In this document: in pieces, positions 3,002-30,349 of the stretch | How the letters are laid out: the number at the start of each line of letters is the position of its first letter | Numbering within the stretch: the stretch's first letter is position 1 | Virus record (IMG/VR): IMGVR_UViG_2909979649_000007 | Location: 23,525-87,524 of that record | Source: a virus | Taxonomy: Duplodnaviria > Caudoviricetes | Direction: 5' to 3' (one strand) | Length of the DNA stretch: 64,000 nt | The notes under the pieces: generated by a model | What the model was told of the DNA's origin: nothing | The model's database searches: none | What the model saw: only the letters and a program-made list of their open reading frames with translations | Position numbers and translations under genes: made by a program

Positions 3002-3175
3002 TTAAAAAGAATTAACTTGCTCTAAAGCGGATTTAGGGAATACGTCTTTATGTGGGGTAGCGCCATCAAACCAACGACATTCGACAGCTGAAGTGTTTAC
3101 ATTAATAACAGTCATCACCGGTCCGCCTGATTTTAATCTAACAAGCGAGCCAGCATATAAGCTAGTAGTGTCCAT
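3002..3175 (-). CDS. DUF2158/YodC family protein
   Basis: GSLVRLKSGGPVMTV..VECRWFDG..FPKSAL; likely start MDTTS at 3175. Confidence 0.85.
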   Translation of the reverse strand: MDTTSLYAGSLVRLKSGGPVMTVINVNTSAVECRWFDGATPHKDVFPKSALEQVNSF

Positions 3176-3212
3176 AGTGATATCTAGTAGGGAAATGGTT
3201 TTCTGCAGGCAT

Positions 3213-3242
3213 AAAAAAAGCCCCATCGAATGATAGGGCTTT
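3213..3242 (-). terminator. tR'-like late-leader terminator
   Basis: AAAGCCC..GGGGC followed by T7; about 60 nt after the late promoter; homolog at 48919-48948. Confidence 0.75.
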
Positions 3243-3304
3243 CTTCTCAAGACTTTCTATACTCGAATGAATTTTGATTAGACGCAAAAATACATTCTGG
3301 AAAA

Positions 3305-13237: not shown

Positions 13238-13567
13238 ATGTTGACTGTAACACGTCGTATAGGTGAATCCCTGAAGGTTGGGGATTACCGGCTGGTAATG
13301 CGAGCGAGAAGAGTGGGCGGAGTAACGCTCACTACCTTGCATCGAGGTCATATAAGCATTAAAGACATTGAGTTTGGCCACCCCCTTAAGTTGAATCACG
13401 AGATAACAGTTTACCCCTACCCTAGCAATAGGGAGAGTTTATCTAAGTCAATGGGGCAGGCAAAGCTAAGTGTTAGTGCACCTAAACACATAAAAGTCGA
13501 GCGTGATGAAATTGAAACAGGCTTTAACAGGAGTAATAGTCAAACTTATTTTGGCGTAGTGACTTGA
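13238..13567 (+). CDS. CsrA/RsmA-like protein, extended or tandem fold
   Basis: MLTVTRRIGESLKVGD at the N-terminus and SVSAPKHIKVERDEI at the C-terminus, about 45 aa further apart than in CsrA. Confidence 0.75.
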   Translation: MLTVTRRIGESLKVGDYRLVMRARRVGGVTLTTLHRGHISIKDIEFGHPLKLNHEITVYPYPSNRESLSKSMGQAKLSVSAPKHIKVERDEIETGFNRSNSQTYFGVVT

Positions 13568-13818: not shown

Positions 13819-14934
13819 ATGCCACCACGCAAAAGAAGTAGGAAAAATCTAGGGCTAGAGCCTAACTTATATACCTATGGACCAAAAAACGACTACTTCC
13901 GGTACAAGCACCCCCTTACTGGAAAGTACCACCCCATGGGTAAGAATCGAGCCAAAGCACAAGCGGCGGCTCGTCAGCTGAATATTAGGCTTGATGGCCA
14001 GTGTATGCTGGTCGCTCATGTGATGGACTCCGATGCAGCTAATGTTGAGCTGCTAATTGATAGGTTTAAAAAAGAGTTTTTACCTACTCGCAACCTTAAG
14101 CCTCGCAGCTTATTGAATTCTGAGTATCGATTAAATCGCATTGCCAGGGATATTGGAAAGCTGCCATTAAAAGAACTTACAGTGCCAACTGTTGCTGACT
14201 ATCTAGATAATAGTTTTTCAGGTGACTCTTACTGCCAACATCGATCAATTTTAATTCAAGTTTGTCGCTTCGGTATCACTAAAGGATTACTAACTTTCAA
14301 CCCCGCTGAAGTAACAATGAATAAAAAAGCTGAAAAAATACGGCAACGGATGACCATTGAGCAATACCACGCTATATACCAATTAGCAGACCCTTGGTTG
14401 AAAAATGCTATGGATATTGGGTTAATTACCCTTCAACGTGCAGGTGATGTTGTAAAAATGAAGTTTGAGGACATCAAAGACAACCGCCTCTTTGTTATAC
14501 AACAGAAGACAGAAAAGCATGGTGAATCAGCCTACCTGGCCATCAACATTGGCGAAGAGCTAGGTGCAGTTATTAAACGAGCAAGCGAGAGTGGTATACG
14601 TAGCCCCTACATTGTTCACAGAAACCCTGACAGGCGCAGTAGCAGCCATCGGCGTAATGACCACTGGACAGCTATTAAGCGTGATTATCTCAGCCGAGCA
14701 TTCTCTGAGGTGCGGGATAAAACTAACTTATTTAAGGAGTTAAAAGCCAGAGAGCGCCCCACCTTTCACGAAATACGATCCCTGGGTGGCTACCTCTATG
14801 AAAAAGCGGGATACGACAAGGACTTTATTAGACGACTAATGGGTCATACTTCTGAAAAAATGACATCACATTACTTAGATGGTCATGCTAATCGATGGAC
14901 AGAATGTTCAGCTGAACTAGTCATACCAGATTAG
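13819..14934 (+). CDS. Tyrosine integrase (lambda Int-like)
   Basis: Arm-binding N-terminus; LQRAGD (R), TFHEIRSL (HxxR), LMGH..MT.HY. Confidence 0.95.
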   Translation: MPPRKRSRKNLGLEPNLYTYGPKNDYFRYKHPLTGKYHPMGKNRAKAQAAARQLNIRLDGQCMLVAHVMDSDAANVELLIDRFKKEFLPTRNLKPRSLLNSEYRLNRIARDIGKLPLKELTVPTVADYLDNSFSGDSYCQHRSILIQVCRFGITKGLLTFNPAEVTMNKKAEKIRQRMTIEQYHAIYQLADPWLKNAMDIGLITLQRAGDVVKMKFEDIKDNRLFVIQQKTEKHGESAYLAINIGEELGAVIKRASESGIRSPYIVHRNPDRRSSSHRRNDHWTAIKRDYLSRAFSEVRDKTNLFKELKARERPTFHEIRSLGGYLYEKAGYDKDFIRRLMGHTSEKMTSHYLDGHANRWTECSAELVIPD

Positions 14935-15800: not shown

Positions 15801-16093
15801 ACAATACAGAAGGCTTTCAAACCGTCGATATCAGGGATCAAACTTCATTTACAAGTCATACCACGCTAATAGTAACGTCACAAACTGTTGTTTTTAGATC
15901 ATATAAGAATATAGCATGAAGTAGGGCTCAACTAAAAAAATAGACTTAGCGAACTAGATTACACGTCAACTGACTTCTAAAAACAGGGGTAGAATCTGGT
16001 GTTATTTACTTAAAATATACTTAATTTATACTTAAAGAAGAATGATTCTTAATTGCAGAAAGGATGTAAGTAATTGAATCTAAAGAGAAAAAA

Positions 16094-16138
16094 TGGTCGG
16101 AGTGAGAGGATTCGAACCTCCGACCCCCACAACCCCAT
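16094..16138 (-). pseudogene. 3' half of tRNA-Pro(GGG) from the anticodon loop to CCA; att core
   Basis: Minus strand ATGGGGT TGTGG GGGTC GGAGG TTCGAAT CCTCT CACTCCG ACCA; no D-arm or 5' acceptor strand upstream. Confidence 0.88.
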
Positions 16139-17238: not shown

Positions 17239-18783
17239 ATGAGCATTAATGTAAAGTTGTCTTTCTTGTTGGGGGCTGGGTTAGCCTCAGTTCTTTGTTG
17301 TAGCACTCAGGCTGAAGTTAGATGGTATGCTCCTTACACTTCACATGATCCATGGAAAACAGACAGTATATCAGGTGTCTATGTAGCCACTCCCTATGAG
17401 TCTTGCATAGAGCAGATGAATTCGTATCAGCGTTCTGCAGATGCTTTTAGGAAAGATGGCCGAGGATATAGTTTTTTAGCTGTTGAAAATACTTATTGGG
17501 CAGGGAAGGTAAATCCTAATTTTAAAAAGTGCTCTTATTTATTTACTTATCCAAATGGCTATAGCTATCAATGGCACCTGAATGCAGGTCTTCAAGGAAA
17601 AGGGTGTGAGTCTCCTTTAGTCTTTGACGAGAAAGTCAGTGGTTGTATTAACAAAAATGCACAGCCTCAAAGCTGCGAGACGTTAAAAGGAAACCCTGTC
17701 AATATTGCTACAGGCAATAAAATTCAGTGGTTTACTGACTTAAGCTTGTCCAACTTATCTATTAAGCGCCTTTATCTTCAAGCAGGTAAAACGGGTAGTT
17801 GGCGTTTTAGCTTTAGTCGTAAGTTAAGTGTTTATCTCAGTGCCGATAACCTCATTGCCCACATCACTCGTGACAACGGCCAGGAAGTAGTTATGTACCA
17901 AGAAGATGGTGTTTGGCAGGATGATGATGCTAACGGTTATCAAGTTAAGGCATTGGAAAATGGTCAATACCAGCTAGTAACAGCTGCTAACTTAACCGAG
18001 ACCTATGATAATCAAGGCCGCTTAATTAAAGTTGAGTCTCCCTCACAGCAGGCAATAGAATTGGCTTATGAGGATAAAAAGTTAGTTATTAGTCAAGGCA
18101 ATTCATCGATTAACTATCACCTCAACGATAATCAGCAAATTACCCGTATTGAAAGCGGTAGTTTAGTGCGTAATTATCAATATGATGAGCAAGGTCAATT
18201 AACGAGTGCTGATTTTAATGGTAACTATAAGGAAACCTACCATTATGAGAATGATCAGTATCCTACCTTATTAACGGGTATTACCAACGCGAACAATCAA
18301 CGTTATGCTACTTGGCAGTATGATGAAAAGGGCCGTGCCACAGTTAGTAAACACGCAGGGGATGTAGATAATGTTACGTTTAGCTATCCTGATGAAAACT
18401 CAACGACTGTTACTAATCCTCTCGGTAAGAAAACCACGTATCGTTTTGAGGAAATAAATGGTTTTCGTAAAGTAAAATCAGTGGAAGGTCATGCCTCTGC
18501 TAATTGCTTAGCCGCTAATAAAGACTACGAATATTTCGATAATGGGTTATTAAAATCCAAAACCGATTGGCAAGGTGTTAAAACTACTTATCAATATAAT
18601 GATCGTGGTTTAGCAACTGAAAAAACAGAAGCGGCAGGTACACCACAAGCTCGAACAGTATCCACGGAATGGCACGAAACCTTTAGTTTACCAGTAAAGG
18701 TGACAGAACCAGGTAAAACCACCATTTACGAATATAGCGATAAAGGCCAGCTAACAAGTCAACGGCAGGAAAGCGCTAAATAA
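17239..18783 (+). CDS. Secreted Rhs/YD-repeat protein, N-terminal chain (signal peptide, Cys-rich domain, DUF6531, YD repeats)
   Basis: MSINVKLSFLLGAGLASVLCCSTQA; GNPVNIATGNK; repeated YDxxGxL. Confidence 0.88.
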   Translation: MSINVKLSFLLGAGLASVLCCSTQAEVRWYAPYTSHDPWKTDSISGVYVATPYESCIEQMNSYQRSADAFRKDGRGYSFLAVENTYWAGKVNPNFKKCSYLFTYPNGYSYQWHLNAGLQGKGCESPLVFDEKVSGCINKNAQPQSCETLKGNPVNIATGNKIQWFTDLSLSNLSIKRLYLQAGKTGSWRFSFSRKLSVYLSADNLIAHITRDNGQEVVMYQEDGVWQDDDANGYQVKALENGQYQLVTAANLTETYDNQGRLIKVESPSQQAIELAYEDKKLVISQGNSSINYHLNDNQQITRIESGSLVRNYQYDEQGQLTSADFNGNYKETYHYENDQYPTLLTGITNANNQRYATWQYDEKGRATVSKHAGDVDNVTFSYPDENSTTVTNPLGKKTTYRFEEINGFRKVKSVEGHASANCLAANKDYEYFDNGLLKSKTDWQGVKTTYQYNDRGLATEKTEAAGTPQARTVSTEWHETFSLPVKVTEPGKTTIYEYSDKGQLTSQRQESAK

Positions 18784-18859
18784 AATCAATTAATTTAAAT
18801 TGCTAGGCGGCACTAGACCGCCTTGGCCAGGTTTTAAATTTATTTTGAGTAGTCATATT

Positions 18860-21490
18860 ATGCAGTTTAAACAGACTTTATTAGCCGGGGCTTTATCGTT
18901 AGTTATTTCCCCGTTAGCGCTTTCAGCGATCACTACTAATACCAGCTATCAATATAATGACCAGAACAAGGTTAGCCAAATTGATGGTCCACGCACTGAT
19001 GTGCAAGATATCACTCAATTTCGTTACAACAATGAAGGGCAATTAACCGAAGTTGTTAATGCACTGGGACATTCGACACAATTATCTGACCATAATGCCT
19101 TTGGAAATCCCCAGAAAATTACTGATGCTAATGGCACGGTAACTAATCTGTCCTATGATGAGATGGGGCAATTAACCCAATCCACTATTAAAAGTACAGC
19201 GGGTGATATCACCACTCGCTTTGAATACGATGCCATTGGCCAAGTGACAGCGATCTATTTACCCAATAGCAGTGAATTGCATTATGAATATGATGGAGCG
19301 AAACGTTTAACGGCTATTCAAAATGGTTTAGGCGAGCGTGTCGAATATCAACACGATAATGCTGGGAATATTACTAAGCAGGTCGTTAAATCTTCTACTG
19401 GCGCAGTAGTCAGCCAATTTAGCCAGGCTTATGATGAAATGAGTAGACTGTTAAAGTCTGTTGGCGCTAATGGTCAAACCAGCCGGTTTGAATACGATAA
19501 AAACAGTAATACAACAGGTGCAACTAATCCTCGTAATTATAAAAGTGGTAATGCGTATGATGCGTTAAATCGGTTAGTCACTAGCACTGATGCATTAAAC
19601 CAAAACACCCAATTTAAATACGATTCGCAAGATAATTTAACCCAAGTCACTGACCCGCGCGGCGTTACCACCACTTATCAATATGATGGTTTAGGGCGTT
19701 TGGTAAAAGAAGTCAGCCCTAGCAGTGGTGAAACGGTTTATAGCCATGATGCCGCCGGTAATGTGACTCAAAAGGTAGATGGCCGTGGTGTTGTTACCAA
19801 ATACAGCTATGACGCTTTAAACCGTCAAACCAGCCGGTCTTATCCTGCTAGTCCAGAGCTGAATGTTACTTACCTTTATGATGGCACCAATGATGGTAAC
19901 AAAGGCATTGGCCGCTTAACGGGCATTCAGGATCAATCAGGCTTAATTGCTTACCAATATGATGACCGGGGTAATGTTACCAAAACCATGCGCTCGGTTA
20001 GCTTCAATGGTAAGGATCAATTCTTTGGTGTGGCCTATGGCTACAACCTAGCTAACCAACTGACTCGTATCCAATACCCCTCTGGTTTAACTATCAGCTA
20101 CCAACGCAATAGCAATGGGCAAGTTAACCAGGTTACCGGTCAATTTAAGGGCAGCGATCAGGTCATTAATTTAGCCAACAATATTGGCTATGTACCGTTT
20201 GGCCCTGTACAACAACTGACGTGGGGTAATGGGAAAACCTTAAACCGCCAATATGATCAGGACTTACAGTTAATTCAGCAAACGGTACAAGGCATCCAAG
20301 AGCTGAATTACCAGTACGATCCAAACGGAAACATTACCGGCATTGATAACTTATTAGCTCAGCAAAACAACAGCTCATATGGTTATGATGCGTTAGACCG
20401 CTTAATCGAAGAGCAAGCTAACTATGGCCGTAAAACCTATGAATATGATCCGGTCGGTAACCGTACTAAGCGTACAACCGAAAAAGCCGGTAAAACTGAA
20501 ACCCAAAAACTAACTTATGCCGAAAACAGCAACCGCTTAATCAAGCATGAAGAAAGCAATGTCAGTTATGACGGCATGGGCAATACCCAAAATAATGGTA
20601 ATGGTTTACAGCTCCAATATGATGGTCAAGGGCGATTAAAAGCTGTTGTTAAAGGTGGAACTACCCAAGCTGAATACCGTTATAACGCGATTGGCGAACG
20701 ATTAGTAAAAGTCTTAAATAACCAAACCGTTATTTACAACTATGACCAAAACGGGCAACTGTTAGCAGAAGCTTATTACAACGCTAACAACCAGCTGTTC
20801 TACACCCGCAACTATGCATGGTTAGGTACTCAACCAATTGCCATGTTAGAGCAATGGCTAAACGACAAAGGCCAAAGCACTAAACAGCAAGTGGCGTATA
20901 TTCACAGTGATCACCTTAACACCCCGCGAGTTGCCTCCAATACAGCAGGCCAGGCTGTTTGGCAGTGGCAATCAGATGCCTTTGGGGTTGGCCGGGCCAA
21001 TGAAGATGTTGATGGCAATGGCCAGAAAACAGTGGTTGCACTGCGTTTTCCTGGGCAGGTTTTTGACCCAGAGTCAGGACTACACTACAACTACTTTAGG
21101 GATTATGACCCTAACCTTGGACGCTATGTTCAGAGTGATCCGATTGGACTTGAAGGTGGACTGAATACTTATGCTTATGTATTGGGTAACCCTCTAAAAT
21201 ACTCAGACTCTACTGGAGAGGCAGCAAATCCAGTATCAACTGCTGGAGGAGCAGTCCTTGGCTTCGGTTGGGGAGTAGTAAGTGAAGTTACTTCTCAAAT
21301 TCAAAATGGATTTGATCCAGTAAAAATCATATTATACCCGATTGCTGATGGAGTAACAGGAGCAATGGCTTGTAGTATGAATCCATATTTAATGGGAGGA
21401 GCATATCCTGCAAATACTACTATGAAGCGTGCTGCTGATGCATTATCTAATGGCTTAAAAGAAGCAATGTCAGGTATGGCAGGCAATTAA
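18860..21490 (+). CDS. Secreted Rhs repeat-associated core protein with short C-terminal extension (start 18860)
   Basis: MQFKQTLLAGALSLVISPLALSA signal; YD repeats; HSDHLNTPR, LRFPGQ, GLHYNYFRDYDP..GRYVQSDPIGLEGG.N.Y.Y..GNP...D. Confidence 0.93.
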   Translation: MQFKQTLLAGALSLVISPLALSAITTNTSYQYNDQNKVSQIDGPRTDVQDITQFRYNNEGQLTEVVNALGHSTQLSDHNAFGNPQKITDANGTVTNLSYDEMGQLTQSTIKSTAGDITTRFEYDAIGQVTAIYLPNSSELHYEYDGAKRLTAIQNGLGERVEYQHDNAGNITKQVVKSSTGAVVSQFSQAYDEMSRLLKSVGANGQTSRFEYDKNSNTTGATNPRNYKSGNAYDALNRLVTSTDALNQNTQFKYDSQDNLTQVTDPRGVTTTYQYDGLGRLVKEVSPSSGETVYSHDAAGNVTQKVDGRGVVTKYSYDALNRQTSRSYPASPELNVTYLYDGTNDGNKGIGRLTGIQDQSGLIAYQYDDRGNVTKTMRSVSFNGKDQFFGVAYGYNLANQLTRIQYPSGLTISYQRNSNGQVNQVTGQFKGSDQVINLANNIGYVPFGPVQQLTWGNGKTLNRQYDQDLQLIQQTVQGIQELNYQYDPNGNITGIDNLLAQQNNSSYGYDALDRLIEEQANYGRKTYEYDPVGNRTKRTTEKAGKTETQKLTYAENSNRLIKHEESNVSYDGMGNTQNNGNGLQLQYDGQGRLKAVVKGGTTQAEYRYNAIGERLVKVLNNQTVIYNYDQNGQLLAEAYYNANNQLFYTRNYAWLGTQPIAMLEQWLNDKGQSTKQQVAYIHSDHLNTPRVASNTAGQAVWQWQSDAFGVGRANEDVDGNGQKTVVALRFPGQVFDPESGLHYNYFRDYDPNLGRYVQSDPIGLEGGLNTYAYVLGNPLKYSDSTGEAANPVSTAGGAVLGFGWGVVSEVTSQIQNGFDPVKIILYPIADGVTGAMACSMNPYLMGGAYPANTTMKRAADALSNGLKEAMSGMAGN

Positions 21491-21596
21491 TACTACTATA
21501 ATACTAGAGCCAAGCATTGCTTGGCATCTGAAAAAAGTTTAGTTTTTAAAATTTTAAGCCATAGCAAAATATAAATTTTGGTATTCAGGATTAAAA

Positions 21597-21830
21597 GTGA
21601 AATATTTAATAAATAATATTATTACCTCAAATAATGCAAAGTACTTTGTGAAAAATAGACTAACATTGTGCTGTTGTTTGTTTGCACACTTTCTAGCTTT
21701 AGTTGGCACATTACATGGAGAAGTTACTAGTGCTATACCTTTATTTTTTATGTTTGTTTTACCTACTATTTATCTTCTAATAATGAAGGGTATGTTCGAT
21801 AAGCAAAAAATTAGTACTAACTCAGAATAA
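21597..21830 (+). CDS. Small 2-TM protein, candidate Rhs immunity
   Basis: AT-rich, directly downstream of the Rhs tip, two hydrophobic segments. Confidence 0.45.
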   Translation: MKYLINNIITSNNAKYFVKNRLTLCCCLFAHFLALVGTLHGEVTSAIPLFFMFVLPTIYLLIMKGMFDKQKISTNSE

Positions 21831-21838
21831 TTAAGTTT

Positions 21839-21975
21839 CTACAAAAAACCCCACTTTGAATTATGTTTTAAAATCAAGCTTTCCAATAAAGCTTTAGCGA
21901 TTTTAATCTCTTCCTCATCAAACTGATTGAGAGAGCCTCAAACTGGTGTTTCAGCTCTATCTCTAGGCTCTCCGT
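21839..21975 (-). pseudogene. Frameshifted C-terminal remnant of an XRE regulator of the type found beside Rhs loci
   Basis: ELKHQFEAL-(2-nt shift)-NQFDEEEIKIAKALLESLILKHNSKW. Confidence 0.65.
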
Positions 21976-22101
21976 TTGAAGATTGATTCAAGGTGGAGCA
22001 CACTAAACTACTAGTATACACTTTGATGGTAATCAAAGTAGATAAGCCCCTGCTAATCAGCGGGCTTACCTGCTCTCCCCTCCTATCGTTTATCACCTTG
22101 T

Positions 22102-22155
22102 TCATCTACTTCGTATACGCTTGCCACCCATCCAGGCAAAGATAGGCTTAGACAT
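22102..22155 (-). pseudogene. N-terminal remnant of a phage DNA adenine methyltransferase (Dam/D12)
   Basis: AAGGAG SD then MSKPIFAWMGGKR followed by an early stop. Confidence 0.7.
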
Positions 22156-22427
22156 GGAGTCTCCTTCTACAAGGTGTAGCGAACCAAATTACCGTCATAC
22201 TTTTTACCAAATTATTGGTCGTACAGTTTGGTGGTTATTTAGGGAAGGTGCGATGAAGGTTAATAAGGCTAGGGGTAATTGGCGCTTCATTCTACTGGCT
22301 GTTTTGTGTTGTCGCTTAAGTAGAATAGTAGATATTTTGAAGAAAATAAATTTTCTGGTGTTTTTTAATGGTTAGATTAATATCTTCTTGATCTCAATAG
22401 AGGATAGTTGCAATAAGCTCAACTGTA

Positions 22428-25088
22428 TTAATTTTGAGAATCCACAAGCTTAAGATCAAACTTCTTATGGTCACGATTATATTTTATGACTTCGATTTCC
22501 ACCCAATCACCTTCTTCATAACTATCCAAAGACTCTATATTTTTGAGTTTGCTTTTGTGAACTAAGCCAGTTCCATTTAAGCCAAATTCTACAAAAAAGC
22601 CATATTTTTGGATAGATACTACCTGAGCAGCAACTTGTAGTCCTGGAGGGTACTCATCTTCTAATCTTTTTACAGTACAATATTGATAATCATTTCCAGC
22701 AACTGATGTAACATAATCGTAGATATTGGATATATAGTCATCATTTATGTTAGTATCTTCTTTGAGGATTTTTGCATAACCCATAAAATAGCTTTTATGA
22801 TATGAATTCATATAATCTATAAGGTATTTAGCATTGCTAATCTGTGACTGTTTAGAGTCATTTCTAAATTTACCCCTTCCAATGAGATTATCTGCTATGC
22901 TTTTAGCTACTTGATTTTCTCTAAATAAAGTATCTTCCGATATTGCTGATAAGTAACTTATATTTTTCAACAGTTCAAGGTGGATTATACCTGCTGGTGA
23001 AATGGAAACAAGATCTTCTATATTAATATCAGATTTCTGAGCCTCAGAGCTAACACAACCTGAGAGTATTAAGCTTGATAGCTCGATTAAAATTCTTGAA
23101 TGGGAGTGACCGTAAGACTGAAGATTTTGTACCAAGCTTCCAACTTTATGGAATCCCTTTGTTTTATTAGGACCATACTCTCTAAACTTAGAGTGTAACC
23201 ACTCTAATATAGCAATTCTAACAAATGGATCTGGAAGACTATCCTCACTATCAGAGTTAAATAGATTTTTTATATGGGACTCCTGGTCACTATAGTACTT
23301 CCTCTTTCCCTTCAAAAGTATCTTAGCTATTAAATAATTAGGTAGTCGATAATCTCCATTTGACTGCCTAACCTTTAAAATTTCACTTTCGCTAATATGT
23401 CCACTTTTACAAAAATATAATATAATTTCTAGTCCTTTTCTTATATTACGACCTGCTATTCCAGATATTATTCTTTTAAACATCCTATCTTGAAAAAGAG
23501 ATGCGATCATCGACTTTAAATATTTTCCTATATCAACACGAGAGCACACAACCTTCATATCGTTTGGCAAAAAATATACGAAGTCTGTGTTCTGTTTTTG
23601 AATTTCTCTCAGCACATAATTAAGACGTTCATATATAACTCTATCCAACAGCGGAGGATCAATTCTAAATACTAAATCTTTTATTACAGTATCAAGTGGA
23701 GGTTCATTTCGAAATTGATCGTATGTAGTATCTCTAATTGGCAGAAAGACCATGGTCAAAAAACTGCTCTTTAGCCATGAAGCCACCTCAAACATAAGAA
23801 GTTGATCATCGCGATTTCGTTTGTCACAATTATCTAGCACAATGACTAATAGTTTATTTTTTTTAACAAAATAATGATTTATTATCCCTCTCAAAGTTGC
23901 ACTATGATCGTGCTGCAGCCTTGTAATTTCATTATATATTACATCTATATACTTCTCTGAATCTTTTGGATATAGTGAAGCTATTTTTTCTGTTTTCTCT
24001 AGCTCTTTAGAGTATATTTTCTTTAGCTCTTCTATACTATCAAAATCTATCTTTGAGTGATTTTTTTTAATTTCATTAATAGTTTCACTAACAATCCAAG
24101 TATATATAAGCTCTCTAGATAGAGGTGCTTTATTGAGATTTAAATTTACCCACTCAGTTGAGAGTCTTATTGACTCAGGTAATGCCTTTATGCGAAGGTA
24201 ATCGGTAAATGTTGATTTTCCTGACCCCACGCTACCAATTAGAAGACATATTTCATTTGAAATTTTTTGTGTGTTAGATAGTTGTTCAGTGATTTCTGTA
24301 GGAAATTCGGTATCTTGCAGAGACCTGGCATTAATTATATGCTCAGGTATTGCAGCTCTGACTATTTTATCAATTGGAGAGATATGGGAAAGTTTTCGTT
24401 TTGATTTTACATAAGCATTTTGAACTATTGCAGCGCGATCTTCAGCAGTATCAGGATTAAATAGACATTTGTACTCTACTGAGATATTTGCACCAAATGA
24501 GTTTTCTCCAACTGTTTCATTTTTTACAGATTTTCCGCCAAGCAAGTAAACTGGTTTATAGTATTTTGCTGACTTCTTTATTTTGAGTAATATATCTTGA
24601 CTTCTAGACAAGACAGTTTTTTTTGAAAGAAAATCAATTAATGCTGAAAAATTTGTATCAACTGAACTAAAATTTTTAGATTCGACAAAAATCTCGATTT
24701 TGTTTCTATCACAATATCCTGCCGCAACAACCATCCCATCTGTTACTACAATTTTCTCACATGGATTGATGTTTTTAGGATAAGATGCATTTATTTCATT
24801 TGCATATAGACGAGCTTCCCTTAACGCTTCGTCAATGTCTTCACCAGGTTTTTTAGCCTCAACTATTACTGAAGGCACACCGTCAACAATAATTGCATAA
24901 TCTGGATAATATAATTTTTTATTAGCGCCTTTATCAATAGCCAACTTTCTAATGTCTGGCTTCGTTCTAAAATCTGTATCCGAATAGCCTAAGCCTATAG
25001 GCTCCCCTTCTGTAAGAAGCCTATATATGAATTTCTGTTCTACATCACTCTCAGTTAACAATTCCAATTCACTATAAACTTTATACAT
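22428..25088 (-). CDS. HsdR_N-type nuclease + P-loop NTPase + C-terminal S1 domain protein
   Basis: ESDVEQK..YPDY..IVEAKKP..EARLYA..VTDG; Walker A GSVGSGKST; Walker B VIVLDNCD; S1 VVSIQKYGFFVE..GLVHKS..GDWVE.EV. Confidence 0.85.
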   Translation of the reverse strand: MYKVYSELELLTESDVEQKFIYRLLTEGEPIGLGYSDTDFRTKPDIRKLAIDKGANKKLYYPDYAIIVDGVPSVIVEAKKPGEDIDEALREARLYANEINASYPKNINPCEKIVVTDGMVVAAGYCDRNKIEIFVESKNFSSVDTNFSALIDFLSKKTVLSRSQDILLKIKKSAKYYKPVYLLGGKSVKNETVGENSFGANISVEYKCLFNPDTAEDRAAIVQNAYVKSKRKLSHISPIDKIVRAAIPEHIINARSLQDTEFPTEITEQLSNTQKISNEICLLIGSVGSGKSTFTDYLRIKALPESIRLSTEWVNLNLNKAPLSRELIYTWIVSETINEIKKNHSKIDFDSIEELKKIYSKELEKTEKIASLYPKDSEKYIDVIYNEITRLQHDHSATLRGIINHYFVKKNKLLVIVLDNCDKRNRDDQLLMFEVASWLKSSFLTMVFLPIRDTTYDQFRNEPPLDTVIKDLVFRIDPPLLDRVIYERLNYVLREIQKQNTDFVYFLPNDMKVVCSRVDIGKYLKSMIASLFQDRMFKRIISGIAGRNIRKGLEIILYFCKSGHISESEILKVRQSNGDYRLPNYLIAKILLKGKRKYYSDQESHIKNLFNSDSEDSLPDPFVRIAILEWLHSKFREYGPNKTKGFHKVGSLVQNLQSYGHSHSRILIELSSLILSGCVSSEAQKSDINIEDLVSISPAGIIHLELLKNISYLSAISEDTLFRENQVAKSIADNLIGRGKFRNDSKQSQISNAKYLIDYMNSYHKSYFMGYAKILKEDTNINDDYISNIYDYVTSVAGNDYQYCTVKRLEDEYPPGLQVAAQVVSIQKYGFFVEFGLNGTGLVHKSKLKNIESLDSYEEGDWVEIEVIKYNRDHKKFDLKLVDSQN

Positions 25089-25155
25089 TTCTTTTCTCTT
25101 ATTCCAAATAACTATTTTATGGAATTTCCTGGTTAACTAGCATGAATTCTTTGAC

Positions 25156-26136
25156 TCAACTTTTACTATTGTATGTATTAAAACCACTAGAATTACTTCC
25201 GACAAACCTGAAATTTGTTTTATTGAAAATTTTGAATAACCATTGTGTAAGTATAAGAAACTCATATATACTGTTTCCTATTTCATATTCTTTAGTTGAT
25301 TCTTTAATAACCTCATTTCCAAGTAATTTAGATGCTTCTTCAGAATCAATAACAAAGTTATGATCTTTATAATGATTAGTAAAATGATCAGCAAGAGAAC
25401 TAGCTGATAGATTTCCAGGCAGACTTTTTCCAATTAATAACCTCTCTGCATATTGAGCTGCTGATTCGTTTAGACGTTCAAACAAGCCAAGTTGTACAAC
25501 ACTAACTTTCTCTGCTAAGAATTTAGCAAACATATCTGAAGCACTTGGAAATTTAGAGGTCATTTCTGCAACTTTCTCAATTGCATTAGCTAAGCCTAAA
25601 GCAGGAAACCCCTGTATTTGAGGATCAATTGGCCCCAATTCACTCAATAATCCCATATGAACTTCATTTGCTCCTAGTGCTATTAAAGTTGCTGCTGATT
25701 TAGCTAGACGAGGTACTAAAACATTAAATTTTGACTTTGCTAATTTTTTACATGTTTTGCTAATTAAGTAAGCAGGCTCAATTTGCCCCCCATTTGAATG
25801 AAGTATCATAAGAATATCTTTATCTTTAGAATCTTTTATAGCATGATATATCTGGTTTGCGTGAAAGCTATTTATTGGGTTTTCGTCATCAAACAGGTAA
25901 ATTATATTGTAGCTAGATAGATTAGTTTCCTTAGTTAGATCACATAAATGGGCTGATATTATTTTTTTTATATTATCTTCAGGTTCTTTATTTCGAAACA
26001 TTTCAACATATTCTTCTTCGTTGAATTTTTTGCTTACAGTTTCTTTTTTATCTTGTTTGGTATTTGTTATTTTAAACTCATCTACTACTTCCTTCTTATT
26101 TTCCATGCTTGCAATGTTTTCAATTGATGAGTTCAT
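25156..26136 (-). CDS. SDH-family Clp-fold serine protease
   Basis: LHSNGG..A..I..VPRLAKSAATLIALGA..M..SELGPIDPQI..HNFVID. Confidence 0.85.
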   Translation of the reverse strand: MNSSIENIASMENKKEVVDEFKITNTKQDKKETVSKKFNEEEYVEMFRNKEPEDNIKKIISAHLCDLTKETNLSSYNIIYLFDDENPINSFHANQIYHAIKDSKDKDILMILHSNGGQIEPAYLISKTCKKLAKSKFNVLVPRLAKSAATLIALGANEVHMGLLSELGPIDPQIQGFPALGLANAIEKVAEMTSKFPSASDMFAKFLAEKVSVVQLGLFERLNESAAQYAERLLIGKSLPGNLSASSLADHFTNHYKDHNFVIDSEEASKLLGNEVIKESTKEYEIGNSIYEFLILTQWLFKIFNKTNFRFVGSNSSGFNTYNSKS

Positions 26137-26183
26137 GATGCCTCCTTGAAGACAGTTCTTTTATTTTATATAAATATTTTTCC

Positions 26184-27191
26184 TTAGTTACTTACCCCAA
26201 CAGCACTCACCGAACATCGACACCCCATCGATTTATTGCCTCTAAACATCACCCGCTCAATCGACCACTTACCTTGCATATGAGCAGGAAAACTCCCATC
26301 CAATTCGATTAATCCTTCAGCCACTAATAACGGATTAGCCGGCATTTCTAAAGAAATATTCACCCCTTTACGCCCTACTTTCCTTAATTGACGTTCACCA
26401 ATTTCTCTGGCTTTAGCTTCACTATCAAACAGGTGCCGTAGTTTTTTATAGGCAGGCTTTCCTATTTTCACTTCTCGTTCCTTAGCGGCTTTTCCATCCC
26501 ACCAGAGAGTGACCACACCATTATATTTACCTCGACTCGGTAAAGTGGCATGTGCATTAATAAAATTATGATTTGTCGGCTGGTTATTGGCAGGCAAACC
26601 CACTTTAACAGTCGATAACTTTTTACCCGATATGCTTTTCAGCTGTCCTTTTTTAGCCAGTACATACAGCTTATTGATAGGCTTAGCTACCGCATCATAC
26701 TGCCTGGCTAACCGAGTAATAAACGACATATCCGTTTCGTCGGTTTGATCGACATGACTCACTATAATTTTAGCTAATGCTGGATCGACGCGAGGTAAAA
26801 AACCGTGTTTTTTTACGATATTTTCAAATAACACACCGAGTGTATATTGCTCATAGGACTGTGACCGTCTTTTCTTAAACGCACTGTCATCTTTCACCTG
26901 AAATGGTGCTGCGGTGGCGACTATGGTTATTTCCATCGGAAATAATTTAGCGTTAATCCGAGTAATTAAAAACTCGCCTTTATCGTAGGGAACACCTTGA
27001 TAATTCAGTATTAATCCTATTCGTTCGCCTTCTTTCGGTAGTCCAGGTAGCCCTTCTGCATCGACGACTAGTTTTAATTGGTCAGACTGATGACCATCGG
27101 CATCGGTTAATTCCCAGGAAATGAGCCGTTGATTAATAATCTTGGCATGCGCCCCCGTCATGGTAGGATATACGCGATAATCTAATCCCAT
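26184..27191 (-). CDS. Phage late control/tail protein D (GpD)
   Basis: LISWELTDADGHQSDQL..HVDQTDETDMSFITRLARQYDAVAKP. Confidence 0.9.
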   Translation of the reverse strand: MGLDYRVYPTMTGAHAKIINQRLISWELTDADGHQSDQLKLVVDAEGLPGLPKEGERIGLILNYQGVPYDKGEFLITRINAKLFPMEITIVATAAPFQVKDDSAFKKRRSQSYEQYTLGVLFENIVKKHGFLPRVDPALAKIIVSHVDQTDETDMSFITRLARQYDAVAKPINKLYVLAKKGQLKSISGKKLSTVKVGLPANNQPTNHNFINAHATLPSRGKYNGVVTLWWDGKAAKEREVKIGKPAYKKLRHLFDSEAKAREIGERQLRKVGRKGVNISLEMPANPLLVAEGLIELDGSFPAHMQGKWSIERVMFRGNKSMGCRCSVSAVGVSN

Positions 27192-27394
27192 AATTGTATA
27201 ACTTGCTTTGGTTTTATCGGTTGTGGGGTGGGTACAGTGAGGGGAATACCGGCAGGTAAGATATAAGTTAGTTGTGTTATTTCTGGATTAAGCTGATAAA
27301 AAGCCTTCTCTAATTCGTCATTATCTTGCCCTAAATGCCGATACAATACATCAGCTACTGTATCACCGGCCAGGGTCGAGACGCGCATTGGCAT
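27182..27394 (-). CDS. Tail protein X (GpX)
   Basis: GDTVADVLYRHLG..NP....ILPAG..L.VP..QLWD. Confidence 0.9.
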   Translation of the reverse strand: MPMRVSTLAGDTVADVLYRHLGQDNDELEKAFYQLNPEITQLTYILPAGIPLTVPTPQPIKPKQVIQLWD

Positions 27395-27764
27395 ACTCCT
27401 CTAATGACAGGGTAAATTCAATTACTTGGGGTTCCCCGGTAGGTAATATCCGTTTATGGGTTTCGGTCACTTCCAATATTTTCCACTGCCCTAAATTGGT
27501 ACCCCGGCCATCCACTAAAAAATAAGGCTGACCGGCCAGCTGCATCTGTCGTAAACGCAATAAATTATCTTCGCCAGTCACACCAAAGACCTTACCATTT
27601 ACACTAATGGTATCTAAATTCGGGGCACTGAAGTGGCTTAATGGTTTACCATTCACCACTTCGGTATTCACCCACTTAACAGAAGATTTATATTGTAATT
27701 GCTCATACGCCGAGCGATGGGTAATACTGAATACAAAATCCCCTAATGCCATTTGTTGTCGCAT
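27363..27764 (-). CDS. Tail protein U (GpU)
   Basis: MALGDFVFS..YEQLQ..P..L..G.G..G.W.I..IEFTLSLEEY. Confidence 0.9.
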   Translation of the reverse strand: MRQQMALGDFVFSITHRSAYEQLQYKSSVKWVNTEVVNGKPLSHFSAPNLDTISVNGKVFGVTGEDNLLRLRQMQLAGQPYFLVDGRGTNLGQWKILEVTETHKRILPTGEPQVIEFTLSLEEYANARLDPGR

Positions 27765-30349
27765 TAATCGTTATTCCTATCTGAAAGCGAACCATCCAGC
27801 CGCTCAGCTAATTGACCACTGGCCATCAGCGGTAAGACTTGGGATTGCATTTGGTTCATGACGTTGTTAGCGATGGCTTGGGTATTATTGGGATCAATGC
27901 CAGGTGGCATCATAAAACTTAGGTTAAAGGTAGGCGACACTTGTTGGTGATTATTATTGGTCACGATCTGTTGTGCGACTTTTTCCGGGGAAGGTAATTT
28001 ATCGGTAATGGGTTGATTAACAATATCAGCCACCTTGGGTTTAAGCTCGACTGTTTCTTTTTCATCGTCAAACCAGCTGCCAACCCCTTCGCCAATCCAT
28101 TTACCTAAACTACTCCCAGCAATACCCCCCACTACGCTACCAATGGCCCCACCAATTACCGTACCCACGACCGGTACGACGCTTCCTACTGCCGCCCCCA
28201 TGGCACCACCTGCCATCGCCCCACTTAAACTGCCGGCTATATCGCCTATCTGTCCGCCGGCTTCTGTCGCATCACCCGCCATGGCCGCATCGGCTAAGGC
28301 AGTCGCCGCCAGTCCAACGCCTAATGGCCTGACTACACGACCTGCACCTTGTAATAAACGTCTGCCCAGTCCTGGGGGCGAAGCGGCTGCCGCAGCAGGG
28401 TTGGGTAAAACGGGTAATGTACGGCCTCTGCCGGATAGTCTCCCACGTCGGCTTCGCCCTCTGTTTCTTCTACCACGCCTTCTTCGTCTACCACCACCGT
28501 CCATCTGGCAACAACAGCAAGCACAGTTAGCGCCTAATTGTCGTCTATTGTTATTGCCTCGACCCGTACCCGCTAAGGTATTATTCAACTGTCGTAGTGA
28601 CGTATTCGCTTGTTGGGTTTGGGTGGCCGTGGTCGCTGTCGTACCGCCTAACCTGGCACGGGCTCGGCGTAAATAATTAATCCCTTGGCCAATACCGAGG
28701 GCCATTAATTTAATGGCTAATCCAGCCCCAATTAACGCCACACCACCAGCGCCAATTAAGCCGATGGTTTTAGCTACGGTTGGATATTCCTCGGCGGCAT
28801 CCGCTAATGAGTTAATAAATTCGGTGAGAGGATCAACAATGTCATTTAATACCGGCAATAACTGATCGCCCATTACTATAAATAAGCGGTCAAAACTGTT
28901 GCCTAATAATTCTAAGTTATTCGCAGTAGTGGCTGAACGGGCCTGATACTCCTTTTCCATGGAGCTAAGGTAACGACTTTCATCCCCGGTTAATTTGAAT
29001 GCATTTTTTAAATTATCCAGGTTTTTAATTAAGGGCATCACTGCCCCTTTCGATTCTTCTCCAAATAAGGCAGAGACTAAGGCGCTGATTTCTTCCTCGG
29101 GCATATCCTGAAAGGCTTCAAAGACCCGAATAATGGTGTTAGGCGCATCCTGTAGCATTTCACCGGCTAATAATTCCGGGTCAAAGCCTAATTGCCCCCA
29201 CACTTGTTTTTGGCGTTTGGAGGCCATTTTCCCTTTGGACATGGCCCCGGTGATATTTTTTAAGGCCGTAGCAGCGACTTCTTCAGCTGCACCACCGGAT
29301 AATAAGGCAGCCGAAAAACTCGCGGCCTGGACTTCTGAAAAGCCAGAGGACATCGCCACTGATCCCTGGCGTTTCATTACCCCAGCAATATCCTTGGCTT
29401 CTGCTGATAGGTTATTTGATAAATAATTAGTAGCATCCGCCAGCTTAATTGCCCGGTCTTGATTTAATCCCATTGCCGAACGCCAGGCGGCCATGGTTTT
29501 ACCGGCTTCTTCTGCCTCAATATCAAAGGCCACACCCATTTTGGCCGCCGAGGTCGCAAAGTTTAATAACTCACCTTTGGCGATATTACTTTGGCCACCG
29601 GCGGCAATAATTTCTGATAAGCCGTCTGCGGCCATCGGGATTTTAGTGGACAGCTTCAGTATGTCACTGGCCATTTGCTTGTCTTCGCCTTTGGACCCGT
29701 CAAAGTCCACGACTTTTTTTACATCGGCAAAAGACGATTCATAATCAATGGCTTTTCTGACAGGCTGGGCCATTAAATACCCGGCGGCGGCCACTTCCAT
29801 CATGGCCCCATAGACTTTGCCCCGTTCCGCCTGGTTGGCATCAATTCGGGCTTGGGCTTGATTGACCGCCTGCATCCGTTGCTGCTGAGACTCTAAGGCA
29901 TTATTGGCTTGGTTCACCGCACCCGCCATGCGGATTTGCTCAACCACTAAGCGGTTAGTATCCACACCGGCATCAGACAACTCCCGTTGTAGATGGTCTA
30001 ACCGGTTAGTTTGAGTTTGATACTGCACATTTAACTGCGAAACGGCCCGATTAACCCGTTCAAAGGTCCGCGTCAATTGTCGGCTGGGGTTTTGGGTTTC
30101 CTCCATCTGTTGGGCTAATTGCCGTTGCTCATTTCTGGCTTCCGTGAGCGAACGACTGGTGTCTTCCATTTGCCGCTGCAATCGATCATAACTGCTCATA
30201 TCCCGTTGCACGGCATTAAGCCTACGAACCTCAGAACGTTGCTCACGTAATTGTGACGTTAACTGTTCTGTAGTGCGCTGATACGACTGTAGTGGTGCCG
30301 AAAAGCGGTCTATCGCCGCAATGGCAATACTATATTGAGCGTTTGGCAT
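27764..30349 (-). CDS. Tail tape measure protein (TP901 core)
   Basis: AIDYESSFADVKKVVDF..AAKMGVAFD..ADATNYL..TTANNL; Gly/Ala-rich C-terminus. Confidence 0.93.
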   Translation of the reverse strand: MPNAQYSIAIAAIDRFSAPLQSYQRTTEQLTSQLREQRSEVRRLNAVQRDMSSYDRLQRQMEDTSRSLTEARNEQRQLAQQMEETQNPSRQLTRTFERVNRAVSQLNVQYQTQTNRLDHLQRELSDAGVDTNRLVVEQIRMAGAVNQANNALESQQQRMQAVNQAQARIDANQAERGKVYGAMMEVAAAGYLMAQPVRKAIDYESSFADVKKVVDFDGSKGEDKQMASDILKLSTKIPMAADGLSEIIAAGGQSNIAKGELLNFATSAAKMGVAFDIEAEEAGKTMAAWRSAMGLNQDRAIKLADATNYLSNNLSAEAKDIAGVMKRQGSVAMSSGFSEVQAASFSAALLSGGAAEEVAATALKNITGAMSKGKMASKRQKQVWGQLGFDPELLAGEMLQDAPNTIIRVFEAFQDMPEEEISALVSALFGEESKGAVMPLIKNLDNLKNAFKLTGDESRYLSSMEKEYQARSATTANNLELLGNSFDRLFIVMGDQLLPVLNDIVDPLTEFINSLADAAEEYPTVAKTIGLIGAGGVALIGAGLAIKLMALGIGQGINYLRRARARLGGTTATTATQTQQANTSLRQLNNTLAGTGRGNNNRRQLGANCACCCCQMDGGGRRRRRGRRNRGRSRRGRLSGRGRTLPVLPNPAAAAASPPGLGRRLLQGAGRVVRPLGVGLAATALADAAMAGDATEAGGQIGDIAGSLSGAMAGGAMGAAVGSVVPVVGTVIGGAIGSVVGGIAGSSLGKWIGEGVGSWFDDEKETVELKPKVADIVNQPITDKLPSPEKVAQQIVTNNNHQQVSPTFNLSFMMPPGIDPNNTQAIANNVMNQMQSQVLPLMASGQLAERLDGSLSDRNND

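What the first reader, a model, noticed from the sequence alone, without database searches (positions are those of the whole stretch)
22428..25088. Nuclease-NTPase-S1 protein: candidate NLR/Avs-like anti-phage factor with an RNA-binding sensor
Seen: an 886-aa protein with an N-terminal HsdR_N-type PD-(D/E)XK nuclease (PDY..EAKKP..EARLYA), a central P-loop NTPase (GSVGSGKST; VIVLDNCD), a helical region and a C-terminal S1/OB domain. There is no hsdM/hsdS or helicase, so this is not a type I R-M subunit. Established: effector-NTPase-sensor is the layout of Avs/STAND defence proteins, and S1 binds single-stranded nucleic acid. Inference: a prophage-borne abortive system sensing phage RNA/ssDNA or mimicking ribosomal S1. 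I do not recognise this domain combination from a named system.
Basis: partly seen in the sequence, partly recalled or inferred. Interest (0 to 1): 0.85.

Follow-up and report, generated by a model that had tools for sequence, protein, structure and literature searches.

The report
Prophage nuclease-ATPase with RNA-binding tail
A prophage cargo gene encodes one 886-residue protein that joins a restriction-type nuclease, an ORC/STAND-like ATP switch and an RNA-binding S1 domain. It belongs to a rare, widely transferred and unstudied family that is probably a single-protein immune system read out through RNA.

Summary
Window 22428-25088 (-) is an intact 886-codon gene with three modules:
- an HSDR_N-type PD-(D/E)XK nuclease;
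- a P-loop ATPase whose predicted fold is closest to ORC/Cdc6 and CED-4/NB-ARC;
- a C-terminal S1 domain.

The family is real: 521 clusters at 50% identity score E<=1e-30, across many phyla. It is rare (2 of 400 sampled genomes of the phylum) and sits on prophages, ICEs, plasmids and defence islands. It matches no PADLOC model, and I found no paper on it. This scan had already met the family on other genomes.

- In a large sub-clade the S1 domain is replaced by one or two RRM domains on a core about 50% identical. RNA binding therefore appears to be the selected function of the tail.
- Tail-less relatives sit inside SNF2-helicase/DUF1156-methylase operons or directly after type I R-M genes.
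- A 95%-identical sister prophage in the same genome loses homology exactly at the gpD stop codon, so the gene lies in a variable cargo slot.
- The adjacent ClpP/SDH-like protease is not a partner; it is absent from all 97 other loci examined.

Best reading: an Avs-like single-protein immune nuclease gated by RNA binding. It works like Avs but is not a member of that family. No experiment has tested it.

The parts
22428..25088 (-). Whole gene, 886 aa plus stop: nuclease, conserved linker, ATPase, lid/winged-helix/helical region, S1
   Evidence: ORF list and translation. Pfam. phrog_14719 matches residues 7-768 at E 1.2e-126. Full-length relatives at 36-69% identity.
24594..25088 (-). Residues 1-165: HSDR_N-type PD-(D/E)XK nuclease domain, with catalytic candidates D63 and E77-A78-K79
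   Evidence: Pfam HSDR_N above its cut-off. E13, D63, E77, A78, K79 and Y95 are invariant in 27 sequences down to 19% identity. Residues 1-165 align to the N-terminal nuclease of the type IIL enzyme DrdV, Z 10.9.
24324..24593 (-). Residues 166-255: strongly conserved linker of unknown role. Residues 231-252 are modelled with low confidence.
   Evidence: Many invariant residues, including N196, F198, G199, E205, Y206, N211, P212 and R218. Residues 231-252 have pLDDT below 50.
23649..24323 (-). Residues 256-480: P-loop ATPase core. Walker A is G285-x4-G290-K291-S-T293, Walker B is D419-N420-C-D422, and the sensor-1 candidate is R452.
   Evidence: These residues are invariant across the superfamily. 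The nearest folds are ORC2, Cdc6, CED-4 and NB-ARC.
22674..23648 (-). Residues 481-805: helical lid (G-R-N-I-R550 motif), winged-helix-like region and helical connector
   Evidence: Archaeal Orc1/Cdc6 chains 2qby_A and 1w5s_A align over residues 201/202-713. R488 and R550 are invariant. Secondary structure.
22431..22673 (-). Residues 806-886: S1 (OB-fold) RNA-binding domain
   Evidence: Pfam S1. PDB profile hit to ribosomal protein S1 domain 4, E 1e-24. Z 11.5, rmsd 2.4 A. The consensus keeps the aromatic residues and histidine of the S1 binding face.
25156..26136 (-). Neighbouring ClpP/SDH-type serine protease gene, 67 bp upstream on the same strand. It is co-cargo, not a conserved partner.
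   Evidence: Pfam SDH_protease E 2.9e-14. No homologue was found in 84 genomic loci or 13 viral loci that carry the family.
26184..27191 (-). gpD-like tail gene, the last conserved gene of the P2-like tail module. Its stop codon marks the start of the variable cargo slot.
   Evidence: Pfam Phage_GPD, with gpX, gpU and tape-measure genes upstream. Identity of 95% with the sister prophage ends at the gpD stop.

Best explanation
The gene encodes a stand-alone, horizontally mobile immune protein carried as prophage cargo. It probably protects the lysogen against other phages or mobile DNA.

Proposed mechanism:
1. The C-terminal S1 domain binds single-stranded RNA. Relatives use one or two RRM domains instead.
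2. RNA binding releases or drives the ORC/STAND-like ATPase switch. This step probably involves ATP-dependent self-association.
3. The switch activates the N-terminal HsdR-type PD-(D/E)XK nuclease, which cuts DNA.

Shown here:
- The domain anatomy.
- Invariance of the nuclease and ATPase catalytic residues.
- Exchange of unrelated RNA-binding folds at the same position.
- Carriage on mobile elements.
- The lack of any conserved partner gene.

Inferred only:
- The defence function itself.
- RNA as the trigger.
- Oligomerisation.
- DNA as the substrate.
- The outcome for the cell.
For: - **Architecture.** Nuclease, ATPase and S1 in one chain.
- **Active sites under selection.** D63, E77, K79, Walker A, Walker B D419/D422 and R452 are invariant in 27 sequences down to 19% identity.
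- **Tail swap.** S1 is replaced by RRM_1 (E 1e-13 to 1e-24) in L028, L029, L033, L049 and L081. The same holds in more than 100 clusters at 90% identity, where S1-bearing proteins are still 51-52% identical in the core. On a tree of core columns the RRM forms are nested among S1 forms.
- **Mobility and rarity.** The gene sits in a low-GC slot (31-35% against about 45% for the prophage). A 95%-identical sister prophage diverges at that point. Relatives lie on an ICE and on 13 IMG/VR viral contigs, and one is named as a plasmid protein. The family was not found in 40 relatives and was found in only 2 of 400 other genomes of the phylum.
- **Company.** The closest homologues sit next to a SMODS cyclase gene and an AAA_15/21 ATPase. 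About 15-17 of 134 immediate neighbours hit PADLOC strongly. These include SoFic, pAgo with SIR2, HmaA/B, DrmD, BrxH, DolB, Ppl, type I and III REases, PDC-S11 and PDC-S18.
- **Embedding.** Tail-less relatives lie between an SNF2 helicase and a DUF1156 methylase, with a 10-bp gap to the methylase gene, or 182 bp after hsdR. Genes embedded in Hma systems were validated as defences in 7 of 9 tests (10.1101/2024.01.29.577857).
- **No conserved partner gene**.
Against: - No experiment exists for any member, and I found no paper on the family.
- No PADLOC model matches.
- My distance control failed as a negative control. ORFs 6.5-10 kb away also carried R-M and MADS hits, so enrichment over genome background was not measured.
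- Many neighbours are ordinary metabolic genes.
- S1 and RRM domains can also bind ssDNA, and PD-(D/E)XK enzymes can cut RNA. Both trigger and substrate are therefore open.
- Nothing here explains how self RNA would be told from foreign RNA.
Confidence: 0.5

Rival explanations
1. RNA-targeting enzyme. The S1 or RRM tail holds the substrate rather than a signal, and the PD-(D/E)XK domain is an ATP-regulated endoribonuclease. It would degrade phage or bulk transcripts, halting infection or inducing dormancy.
For: Three kinds of classical RNA-binding module are seen or suggested at the C-terminus. S1 and RRM are shown. A CSD-bearing cluster is only suggested by the ESM Atlas. A restriction-like family carrying RNA-binding domains has been predicted to target RNA (CoCoNuTs, PMC11090510, abstract). 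From general knowledge, some PD-(D/E)XK nucleases cut RNA.
Against: The nuclease is closest in sequence and fold to DNA restriction nucleases, namely HSDR_N and DrdV. A winged-helix region of the ORC/Cdc6 type suggests contact with duplex DNA. Tail-less relatives keep the nuclease and ATPase without any RNA-binding domain.
Confidence: 0.2
2. Accessory nuclease module of restriction-like systems. The core (nuclease, ATPase, winged helix) works together with type I R-M, Hma/DISARM-like or BREX-related machinery. The stand-alone S1 forms would be derived versions that depend on host systems encoded elsewhere.
For: Tail-less relatives are embedded co-directionally in an SNF2-helicase/DUF1156-methylase operon (L054, L055) or follow hsdR (L078). 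S1-class forms (including L065, whose tail has no Pfam hit) sit inside or beside type I R-M operons in L016 and L065. An HsdM-like neighbour cluster occurs in 6 of about 80 loci. ORC-like DUF499 ATPases with C-terminal RRM-fold domains are core parts of BREX-related systems (PMC12839542).
Against: No partner gene is conserved; the largest neighbour cluster covers 12 of 83 loci at scattered positions. In the window, on the ICE and in most other loci the gene stands alone. Embedded genes are usually independent defences. There are no matches to HmaC or BrxC models.
Confidence: 0.1
3. Two-gene system with the upstream ClpP/SDH-like protease, as in the sister notes e1-5897427 and e1-5897437. The protease would gate or process the nuclease-ATPase.
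For: The two genes share a strand, lie 67 bp apart and share a low GC content.
Against: No protease homologue (phmmer E<=1e-3) was found among the called ORFs of at least 60 aa in the up to 10 kb of flank held on each side of any of 84 other genomic loci, and none (phmmer E<=1e-5) in any of 13 viral loci. The closest homologues, at 64-69% identity, have other neighbours.
Confidence: 0.05
4. A function that serves the phage rather than defence. Examples are host or competitor nucleic-acid degradation during lytic growth, or a selfish addiction module that stabilises the element.
For: The gene lies directly downstream of the late tail operon on the same strand, with no terminator-like site in between. 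It belongs to a PHROG of unknown function. It is found on viral contigs.
Against: Most members are not in phages. They lie on ICEs, plasmids and chromosomal islands next to defence genes. Prophage cargo slots behind tail genes commonly hold defence genes (general knowledge). No antitoxin-like partner is conserved.
Confidence: 0.1

Closest known systems
Avs / AVAST antiviral STAND proteins with N-terminal nuclease effectors
   Same: A single polypeptide with an N-terminal PD-(D/E)XK-type nuclease, a central P-loop switch ATPase of the ORC/STAND lineage and a C-terminal sensing module. It stands alone and is carried on mobile elements and defence islands.
   Different: No Avs model matches. The nearest folds are ORC/Cdc6, ahead of the apoptotic and NLR ATPases. 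The C-terminus is an 80-residue S1 or RRM nucleic-acid-binding domain rather than a large TPR-like repeat sensor for phage proteins. Oligomerisation has not been shown.
DUF499 / BrxC-like ORC-Cdc6 ATPases of BREX-related (Hma-type) systems
   Same: A defence ATPase of the STAND/ORC-Cdc6 type followed by winged-helix domains and a variable C-terminal RRM-fold domain proposed to bind foreign nucleic acid (PMC12839542). Tail-less relatives of the present family lie inside such helicase/DUF1156-methylase operons.
   Different: There is no sequence match to the PADLOC HmaC or BrxC models. The present family carries its own nuclease and mostly stands alone. Its RRM is the canonical RRM_1 family, or is replaced by S1.
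Type I restriction enzyme HsdR (nuclease domain), and the type IIL enzyme DrdV
   Same: The N-terminal domain is an HSDR_N family member with an intact D...EAK catalytic motif. Structurally it aligns to the DrdV nuclease. NCBI annotates relatives as 'type I restriction endonuclease'.
   Different: There is no SF2 translocase, and no HsdM or HsdS in the locus. The ATPase belongs to a different class. The public annotation is therefore misleading.
CoCoNuT type IV restriction systems (predicted RNA-targeting)
   Same: A restriction-type nuclease combined with an NTPase and canonical RNA-binding domains. Its authors also read it as RNA-linked immunity (PMC11090510).
   Different: CoCoNuTs are multi-gene McrBC-type GTPase systems with coiled coils. 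They show no homology to the present ATPase or to its architecture.
phrog_14719 (phage protein family of unknown function)
   Same: It matches residues 7-768 at E 1.2e-126, so phage-borne members are already grouped.
   Different: The PHROG carries no functional annotation, and the match ends at residue 768, before the S1 tail.

Membership tests
Avs / AVAST | Central STAND NTPase recognised by Avs/STAND family models | tested here: inconclusive
   PADLOC gives no Avs hit. Pfam AAA_16 scores 19.1 bits against a cut-off of 32.6. CED-4 and NB-ARC are among the fold matches, but ORC/Cdc6 ranks first. A 24%-identical tail-less paralogue family does hit NACHT and nSTAND_NTPase5.
Avs / AVAST | Large C-terminal repeat (TPR-like) sensor that binds a phage protein | tested here: not met
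   The C-terminus is an 80-residue S1 domain. Relatives carry RRM_1 or nothing.
Avs / AVAST | N-terminal effector such as a PD-(D/E)XK nuclease | tested here: met
   HSDR_N above its cut-off. D63, E77 and K79 are invariant.
Avs / AVAST | Ligand-induced oligomerisation that activates the effector | not testable with these tools
Type I R-M HsdR subunit | HSDR_N nuclease domain | tested here: met
   Pfam PF04313, E 1.5e-8, 35.2 bits against 25.1.
Type I R-M HsdR subunit | SF2 helicase/translocase motor (ResIII, Helicase_C) | tested here: not met
   No such domain is found in the protein. A true HsdR next to relative L078 shows these domains clearly.
Type I R-M HsdR subunit | hsdM and hsdS genes in the locus | tested here: not met
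   None are found among the neighbours in the window. An HsdM-like neighbour occurs in only 6 of about 80 related loci.
ORC/Cdc6-STAND lineage of AAA+ switch ATPases | ATPase core, helical lid and winged helix, with Walker A, Walker B and an arginine after strand 4 | tested here: met
   Foldseek E 7e-7 to ORC2. VIA Z 12-13 over about 250-330 residues, extending to residue 713 on archaeal Orc1/Cdc6 chains. The motifs are invariant.
S1 domain (PF00575) | OB-fold S1 domain scoring above the family threshold | tested here: met
   36.5 bits against 22. E 1e-24 to ribosomal protein S1 chains. Z 11.5, rmsd 2.4 A.
Hma / BREX-related ATPase (HmaC, DUF499, BrxC) | Sequence match to the family models | tested here: not met
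   The only PADLOC hits, for the window protein or for tail-less relatives, are P-loop-level ones with E above 1e-4.
Protease-gated two-gene system | Conserved co-occurrence of the ClpP/SDH-like protease with the nuclease-ATPase | tested here: not met
   0 of 84 genomic loci and 0 of 13 viral loci hold a protease homologue.

The most novel reading that the evidence does not exclude
This family would be a bacterial ORC/NLR-like innate immune receptor that uses canonical RNA-binding domains as its sensor. S1 and RRM are shown here, and a cold-shock domain is possible. It would be a prokaryotic single-protein counterpart of cytosolic RNA sensing. It might detect naked or abnormal transcripts made during infection and answer by ATP-driven assembly and DNA cleavage.
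Probability: 0.3. Interest if true: 0.85.

Novelty: new variant of a known kind. Interest (0 to 1): 0.66.

Why it matters
Known bacterial STAND/NLR-like immune proteins sense phage proteins through large repeat domains. In this family the sensor position is instead filled by small textbook RNA-binding domains that have been swapped between unrelated folds. That points to RNA as an infection signal read without a guide, which outside CRISPR type III and a few other systems is barely explored in bacteria.

The family is compact (one gene) and has clear catalytic residues and natural domain-swap variants, so it is directly testable. The result also corrects a misleading public annotation ('type I restriction endonuclease'). 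Finally, it shows that the neighbouring protease need not be cloned with the gene.

Tried and rejected
- **Protease partnership.** Rejected. No homologue was found in 84 genomic or 13 viral loci.
- **Known defence system.** The PADLOC scan of the window protein and of nine relatives gave only P-loop-level hits. HEC-01 to HEC-09 have other architectures.
- **Phage GenBank records.** tblastn found no match.
- **Literature.** Six searches found no description of the family.
- **Distance control for defence enrichment.** ORFs 6.5-10 kb away still carried R-M and MADS hits, so this was not a usable negative control.
- **CSD-bearing variant.** The ESM Atlas suggests one. None of my 507 fetched proteins matched a CspA query, and none turned up in the searches. 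The lead remains untested.
- **tRNA fragment at about 16.0-16.2 kb**, proposed by other first-reader notes. ARAGORN and Rfam gave no tRNA match, so it is neither confirmed nor excluded.
- **Promoter and terminator scan of 21400-26400.** It gave nothing above shuffled expectation.
- **Sequencing runs.** None was listed.
- **'Mimic of ribosomal S1'.** The best match is to S1 domain 4, which is ordinary domain similarity. I did not pursue it.
Full report
**1. Observation.** Window 22428-25088 (minus strand) is one open frame of 886 codons. Pfam places HSDR_N at residues 56-122 and S1 at 818-879, both above their curated cut-offs. The P-loop region reaches only sub-threshold AAA_16 and AAA_22 scores. 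NCBIfam adds nothing beyond S1-domain similarity. PADLOC has no model for the protein. PHROGs already groups phage-borne relatives as phrog_14719, of unknown function, which matches residues 7-768 at E 1.2e-126.

**2. Structure.** I folded the protein with an alignment of 38 relatives. The model has mean pLDDT 83.6 and pTM 0.78, and only residues 231-252 are unreliable.
- Foldseek puts archaeal ORC2, Cdc6/Orc1, CED-4 and a plant NB-ARC domain on top, with E from 7e-7 to 1e-4.
- The second-look aligner gives Z 12-13 over residues of about 200-600. On archaeal Orc1/Cdc6 chains the alignment extends to residue 713, so it covers the ATPase core, lid and winged helix.
- The same table aligns residues 802-883 to S1 domains (Z 11.5, rmsd 2.4 A) and residues 1-165 to the nuclease of the type IIL enzyme DrdV (Z 10.9).
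- A profile search of PDB sequences hits ribosomal protein S1 at E 1e-24, best on its fourth domain.
- The ATPase is therefore an ORC/Cdc6-STAND-lineage switch. The data do not allow it to be called a canonical Avs or NACHT module.

**3. The family.** The word-indexed search found 897 relatives. The best 120 are nearly all 875-910 residues long and 48-69% identical. The exhaustive profile search of 1.84 billion representatives found 521 clusters at E<=1e-30.
- Members come from Pseudomonadota, Bacteroidota, Bacillota, Spirochaetota, Planctomycetota, Verrucomicrobiota, Acidobacteriota, Cyanobacteriota/Melainabacteria, Deinococcota and a Parcubacteria MAG.
- On a tree of the core columns, the window protein's nearest relative is from a Legionella MAG (64% identity), followed by an Acetivibrio (Bacillota) MAG. 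The gene tree therefore does not follow organismal descent (FastTree only).
- The family is rare. It was not found in 40 relatives of the genome, and it was found in 2 of 400 other genomes sampled from the phylum.
- In a deliberately broad alignment of 27 sequences (down to 19% identity) a short set of residues is invariant. These are E13, D63, E77-A78-K79 and Y95 in the nuclease; G285, G288, G290, K291 and T293 (Walker A); D419, N420 and D422 (Walker B region); R452; R488; and R550. Both catalytic centres are thus under purifying selection.

**4. The C-terminal module is exchangeable, and always for an RNA binder.** This is the main new result.
- Among 80 genomic loci, about 65 proteins end in S1. 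Some of these S1 domains are divergent and seen only by Pfam.
- Five proteins end in RRM_1 instead: one RRM in L029 and two in L028, L033, L049 and L081 (E 7e-13 to 1e-24).
- Seven proteins have tails of 13-78 residues with no detected domain, and three have unassigned tails of 113-124 residues.
- A search seeded with an RRM form listed mostly RRM_1-bearing proteins among its best 120 hits (90%-identity clusters), of about 985 residues (two RRMs) or about 890 residues (one RRM). S1-bearing proteins (P0232, P0236) are still 51-52% identical to that query's core.
- On the core-only tree the RRM forms fall in two groups inside a clade that otherwise consists of S1 forms. Tail-less forms arise at least four times.
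- S1 (OB barrel) and RRM (beta-alpha-beta sandwich) are unrelated folds whose shared property is binding single-stranded RNA. Their substitution at one position on a conserved core argues that RNA binding is what selection maintains there.
- The ESM Atlas also lists a 973-residue neighbour cluster in which 74% of members carry a cold-shock domain and 30% carry HSDR_N. I could not retrieve a member, so this remains a lead.

**5. Genomic setting in the window.** The gene follows a P2-like tail module on the same strand: tape measure, gpU, gpX and gpD at 26184-30349. It is separated from gpD only by a ClpP/SDH-type protease gene.
- The stretch 22-26 kb has 31-35% GC, against about 45% in the prophage structural genes.
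- The same genome holds a second prophage whose tail module is 95% identical over 6.9 kb. Identity stops at the gpD stop codon, and about 9.6 kb of unrelated genes follow.
- Further left in the window lie Rhs genes, a lambda-type integrase (13819-14934) and a CI-like repressor. Short patches of that left region reappear beyond the sister prophage's cargo.
- The gene therefore sits in a variable cargo slot between the last tail gene and the integrase/att region. I did not map the exact prophage ends.

**6. The protease is not a partner.** phmmer with the protease found it only in the window itself. No homologue appeared among the called ORFs of at least 60 aa in the up to 10 kb of flank held on each side of 84 other loci, or in 13 viral contigs. 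The closest homologues of the nuclease-ATPase have other neighbours:
- At 69% identity, the gene lies just downstream of a cluster that includes a SMODS cyclase gene.
- At 64% identity, the neighbours are an AAA_15/AAA_21 ATPase and a Y1 transposase.
- A Pseudomonas syringae-group copy lies inside an ICE transfer region.
- An Advenella copy lies near a TIR_2 gene.
- A Rheinheimera copy lies next to a HEPN gene.

All-against-all clustering of 1333 neighbouring ORFs found no conserved partner. The largest cluster covers 12 of 83 loci at scattered positions.

**7. Company of the relatives.** I pooled the nearest flanking ORFs of at least 150 residues, giving 134 proteins.
- Pfam tallies were led by phage integrases (6), ResIII (3), N6_Mtase, HSDR_N, Eco57I, Fic, SNF2 and AAA_21.
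- PADLOC at E<=1e-15 hit SoFic (2), type I methylase (2), mad2 (2), HmaA, HmaB, pAgo, SIR2-Aga, type I and III REases, DolB, DrmD, Ppl, BrxH, PDC-S11 and PDC-S18. By my count that is about 15-17 proteins, or roughly 12% of the set.
- ORFs 6.5-10 kb away looked mostly like housekeeping genes by Pfam, but they still included R-M and MADS hits. I cannot give a clean enrichment figure.
- Tail-less members in Verrucomicrobiota are the most telling. In L054 and L055 the gene sits between an SNF2 helicase with NOV_C and a DUF1156 methylase, 145 bp and 10 bp away. In L078 it starts 182 bp after a complete hsdR gene.
- Genes embedded in Hma systems have been tested, and seven of nine were active defences (10.1101/2024.01.29.577857). 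None of those nine resembles this protein.

**8. Mechanism.**
- *Shown:* the three-module anatomy with intact catalytic residues, a tail that binds RNA judging by family and by substitution, independence from neighbouring genes, and mobility.
- *Inferred from ORC/STAND biology and from Avs:* ligand binding at the C-terminus controls nucleotide state and self-association, which licenses the nuclease.
- *Inferred from HSDR_N and DrdV similarity and the winged helix:* the substrate is DNA.
- *The strongest rival:* RNA is the substrate rather than the signal.
- *Unresolved:* I see no basis yet for how foreign RNA would be discriminated from self RNA. Possibilities such as ribosome-free transcripts are speculation.

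**9. Comparison with known systems.** The protein works like Avs (effector, switch ATPase, sensor) but fails two membership features, namely family-model recognition and a repeat sensor. It is not HsdR, because it has no translocase and no M or S subunits. The closest published parallel for an ORC-like defence ATPase with a C-terminal RRM-fold sensor is DUF499 of BREX-related systems (PMC12839542), which is not homologous by the PADLOC models. CoCoNuTs are a conceptual parallel for RNA-binding domains in restriction-like systems.

**10. Earlier notes of this scan.** Earlier follow-up notes of this scan had already found S1-bearing members on five windows of other genomes and reached the same general reading. 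Those summaries do not mention the RRM swap, the tail-less embedded forms or a protease test.

**11. Verdict.** The feature is real. It is a new variant of a known kind of system, and it has not been tested by experiment. My confidence that it is a defence or anti-mobile-element gene is about 0.7. My confidence in the specific model of an RNA-gated DNase is about 0.5 or less.

Noticed in passing
window 25156-26136 (-): A ClpP/SDH-type serine protease of 326 aa. It hits PF01972 and phrog_11747 (unknown function) and scores 69 bits on the NCBIfam SDH Clp-fold model against a cut-off of 250. It is carried as separate cargo right after gpD, and its own role is unknown.
   Followed up: partly
G000:C1:2672000-2690000 (locus L109): A second prophage in the same genome has a tail module 95% identical to the window's. 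Different cargo follows gpD: small membrane proteins, an IS3-like two-ORF transposase, and a 230-aa ORF. The C-terminal half of that ORF looks TIR-like by eye (not tested), and the transposase ORFs begin about 40 bp after its end.
   Followed up: partly
window 22102-22155 (-): A 17-codon ORF (MSKPIFAWMGGKR...) resembles the N-terminal WxGGK motif of Dam-type D12 methyltransferases, judged from memory. It may be a remnant of an earlier cargo gene. Another first-reader note also calls it a Dam remnant.
   Followed up: no
window 17239-21490 (+): Two adjacent Rhs-repeat ORFs of 514 aa (DUF6531 plus RHS repeat) and 896 aa (10 RHS repeats plus RHS core) lie between the integrase region and the cargo genes. 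They could be a split gene or a true two-gene Rhs toxin.
   Followed up: no
window 13238-13567 (+), 5781-7127 (-), 10021-10722 (+): The early region of the left prophage holds a 109-aa protein with a partial CsrA match, a 448-aa radical-SAM enzyme and a double-HTH CI-like repressor.
   Followed up: no
L104 (G001:C140), ORF 793-3300: A same-genus genome carries an 835-aa tail-less paralogue that is 24% identical (hhalign probability 99.8). It hits Pfam AAA_16, NACHT and nSTAND_NTPase5. NCBI names the identical protein as coming from Spartinivicinus poritis, which suggests that the window's genome belongs to Spartinivicinus.
   Followed up: partly
L054 6254-18607 and L055 6181-19505: Verrucomicrobial operon in this order: SNF2 helicase with NOV_C, the tail-less nuclease-ATPase, a DUF1156 methylase, and then a gene of about 1114 aa. 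It looks like an Hma/DISARM-type system with an embedded family member.
   Followed up: partly
window 15985-16132 (+): A sub-threshold Rfam match to HPnc0260 (50.4 bits against 59, E 2e-4) lies at the spot where other notes propose a tRNA-Pro fragment and a prophage junction. No tRNA was detected by ARAGORN or Rfam.
   Followed up: partly
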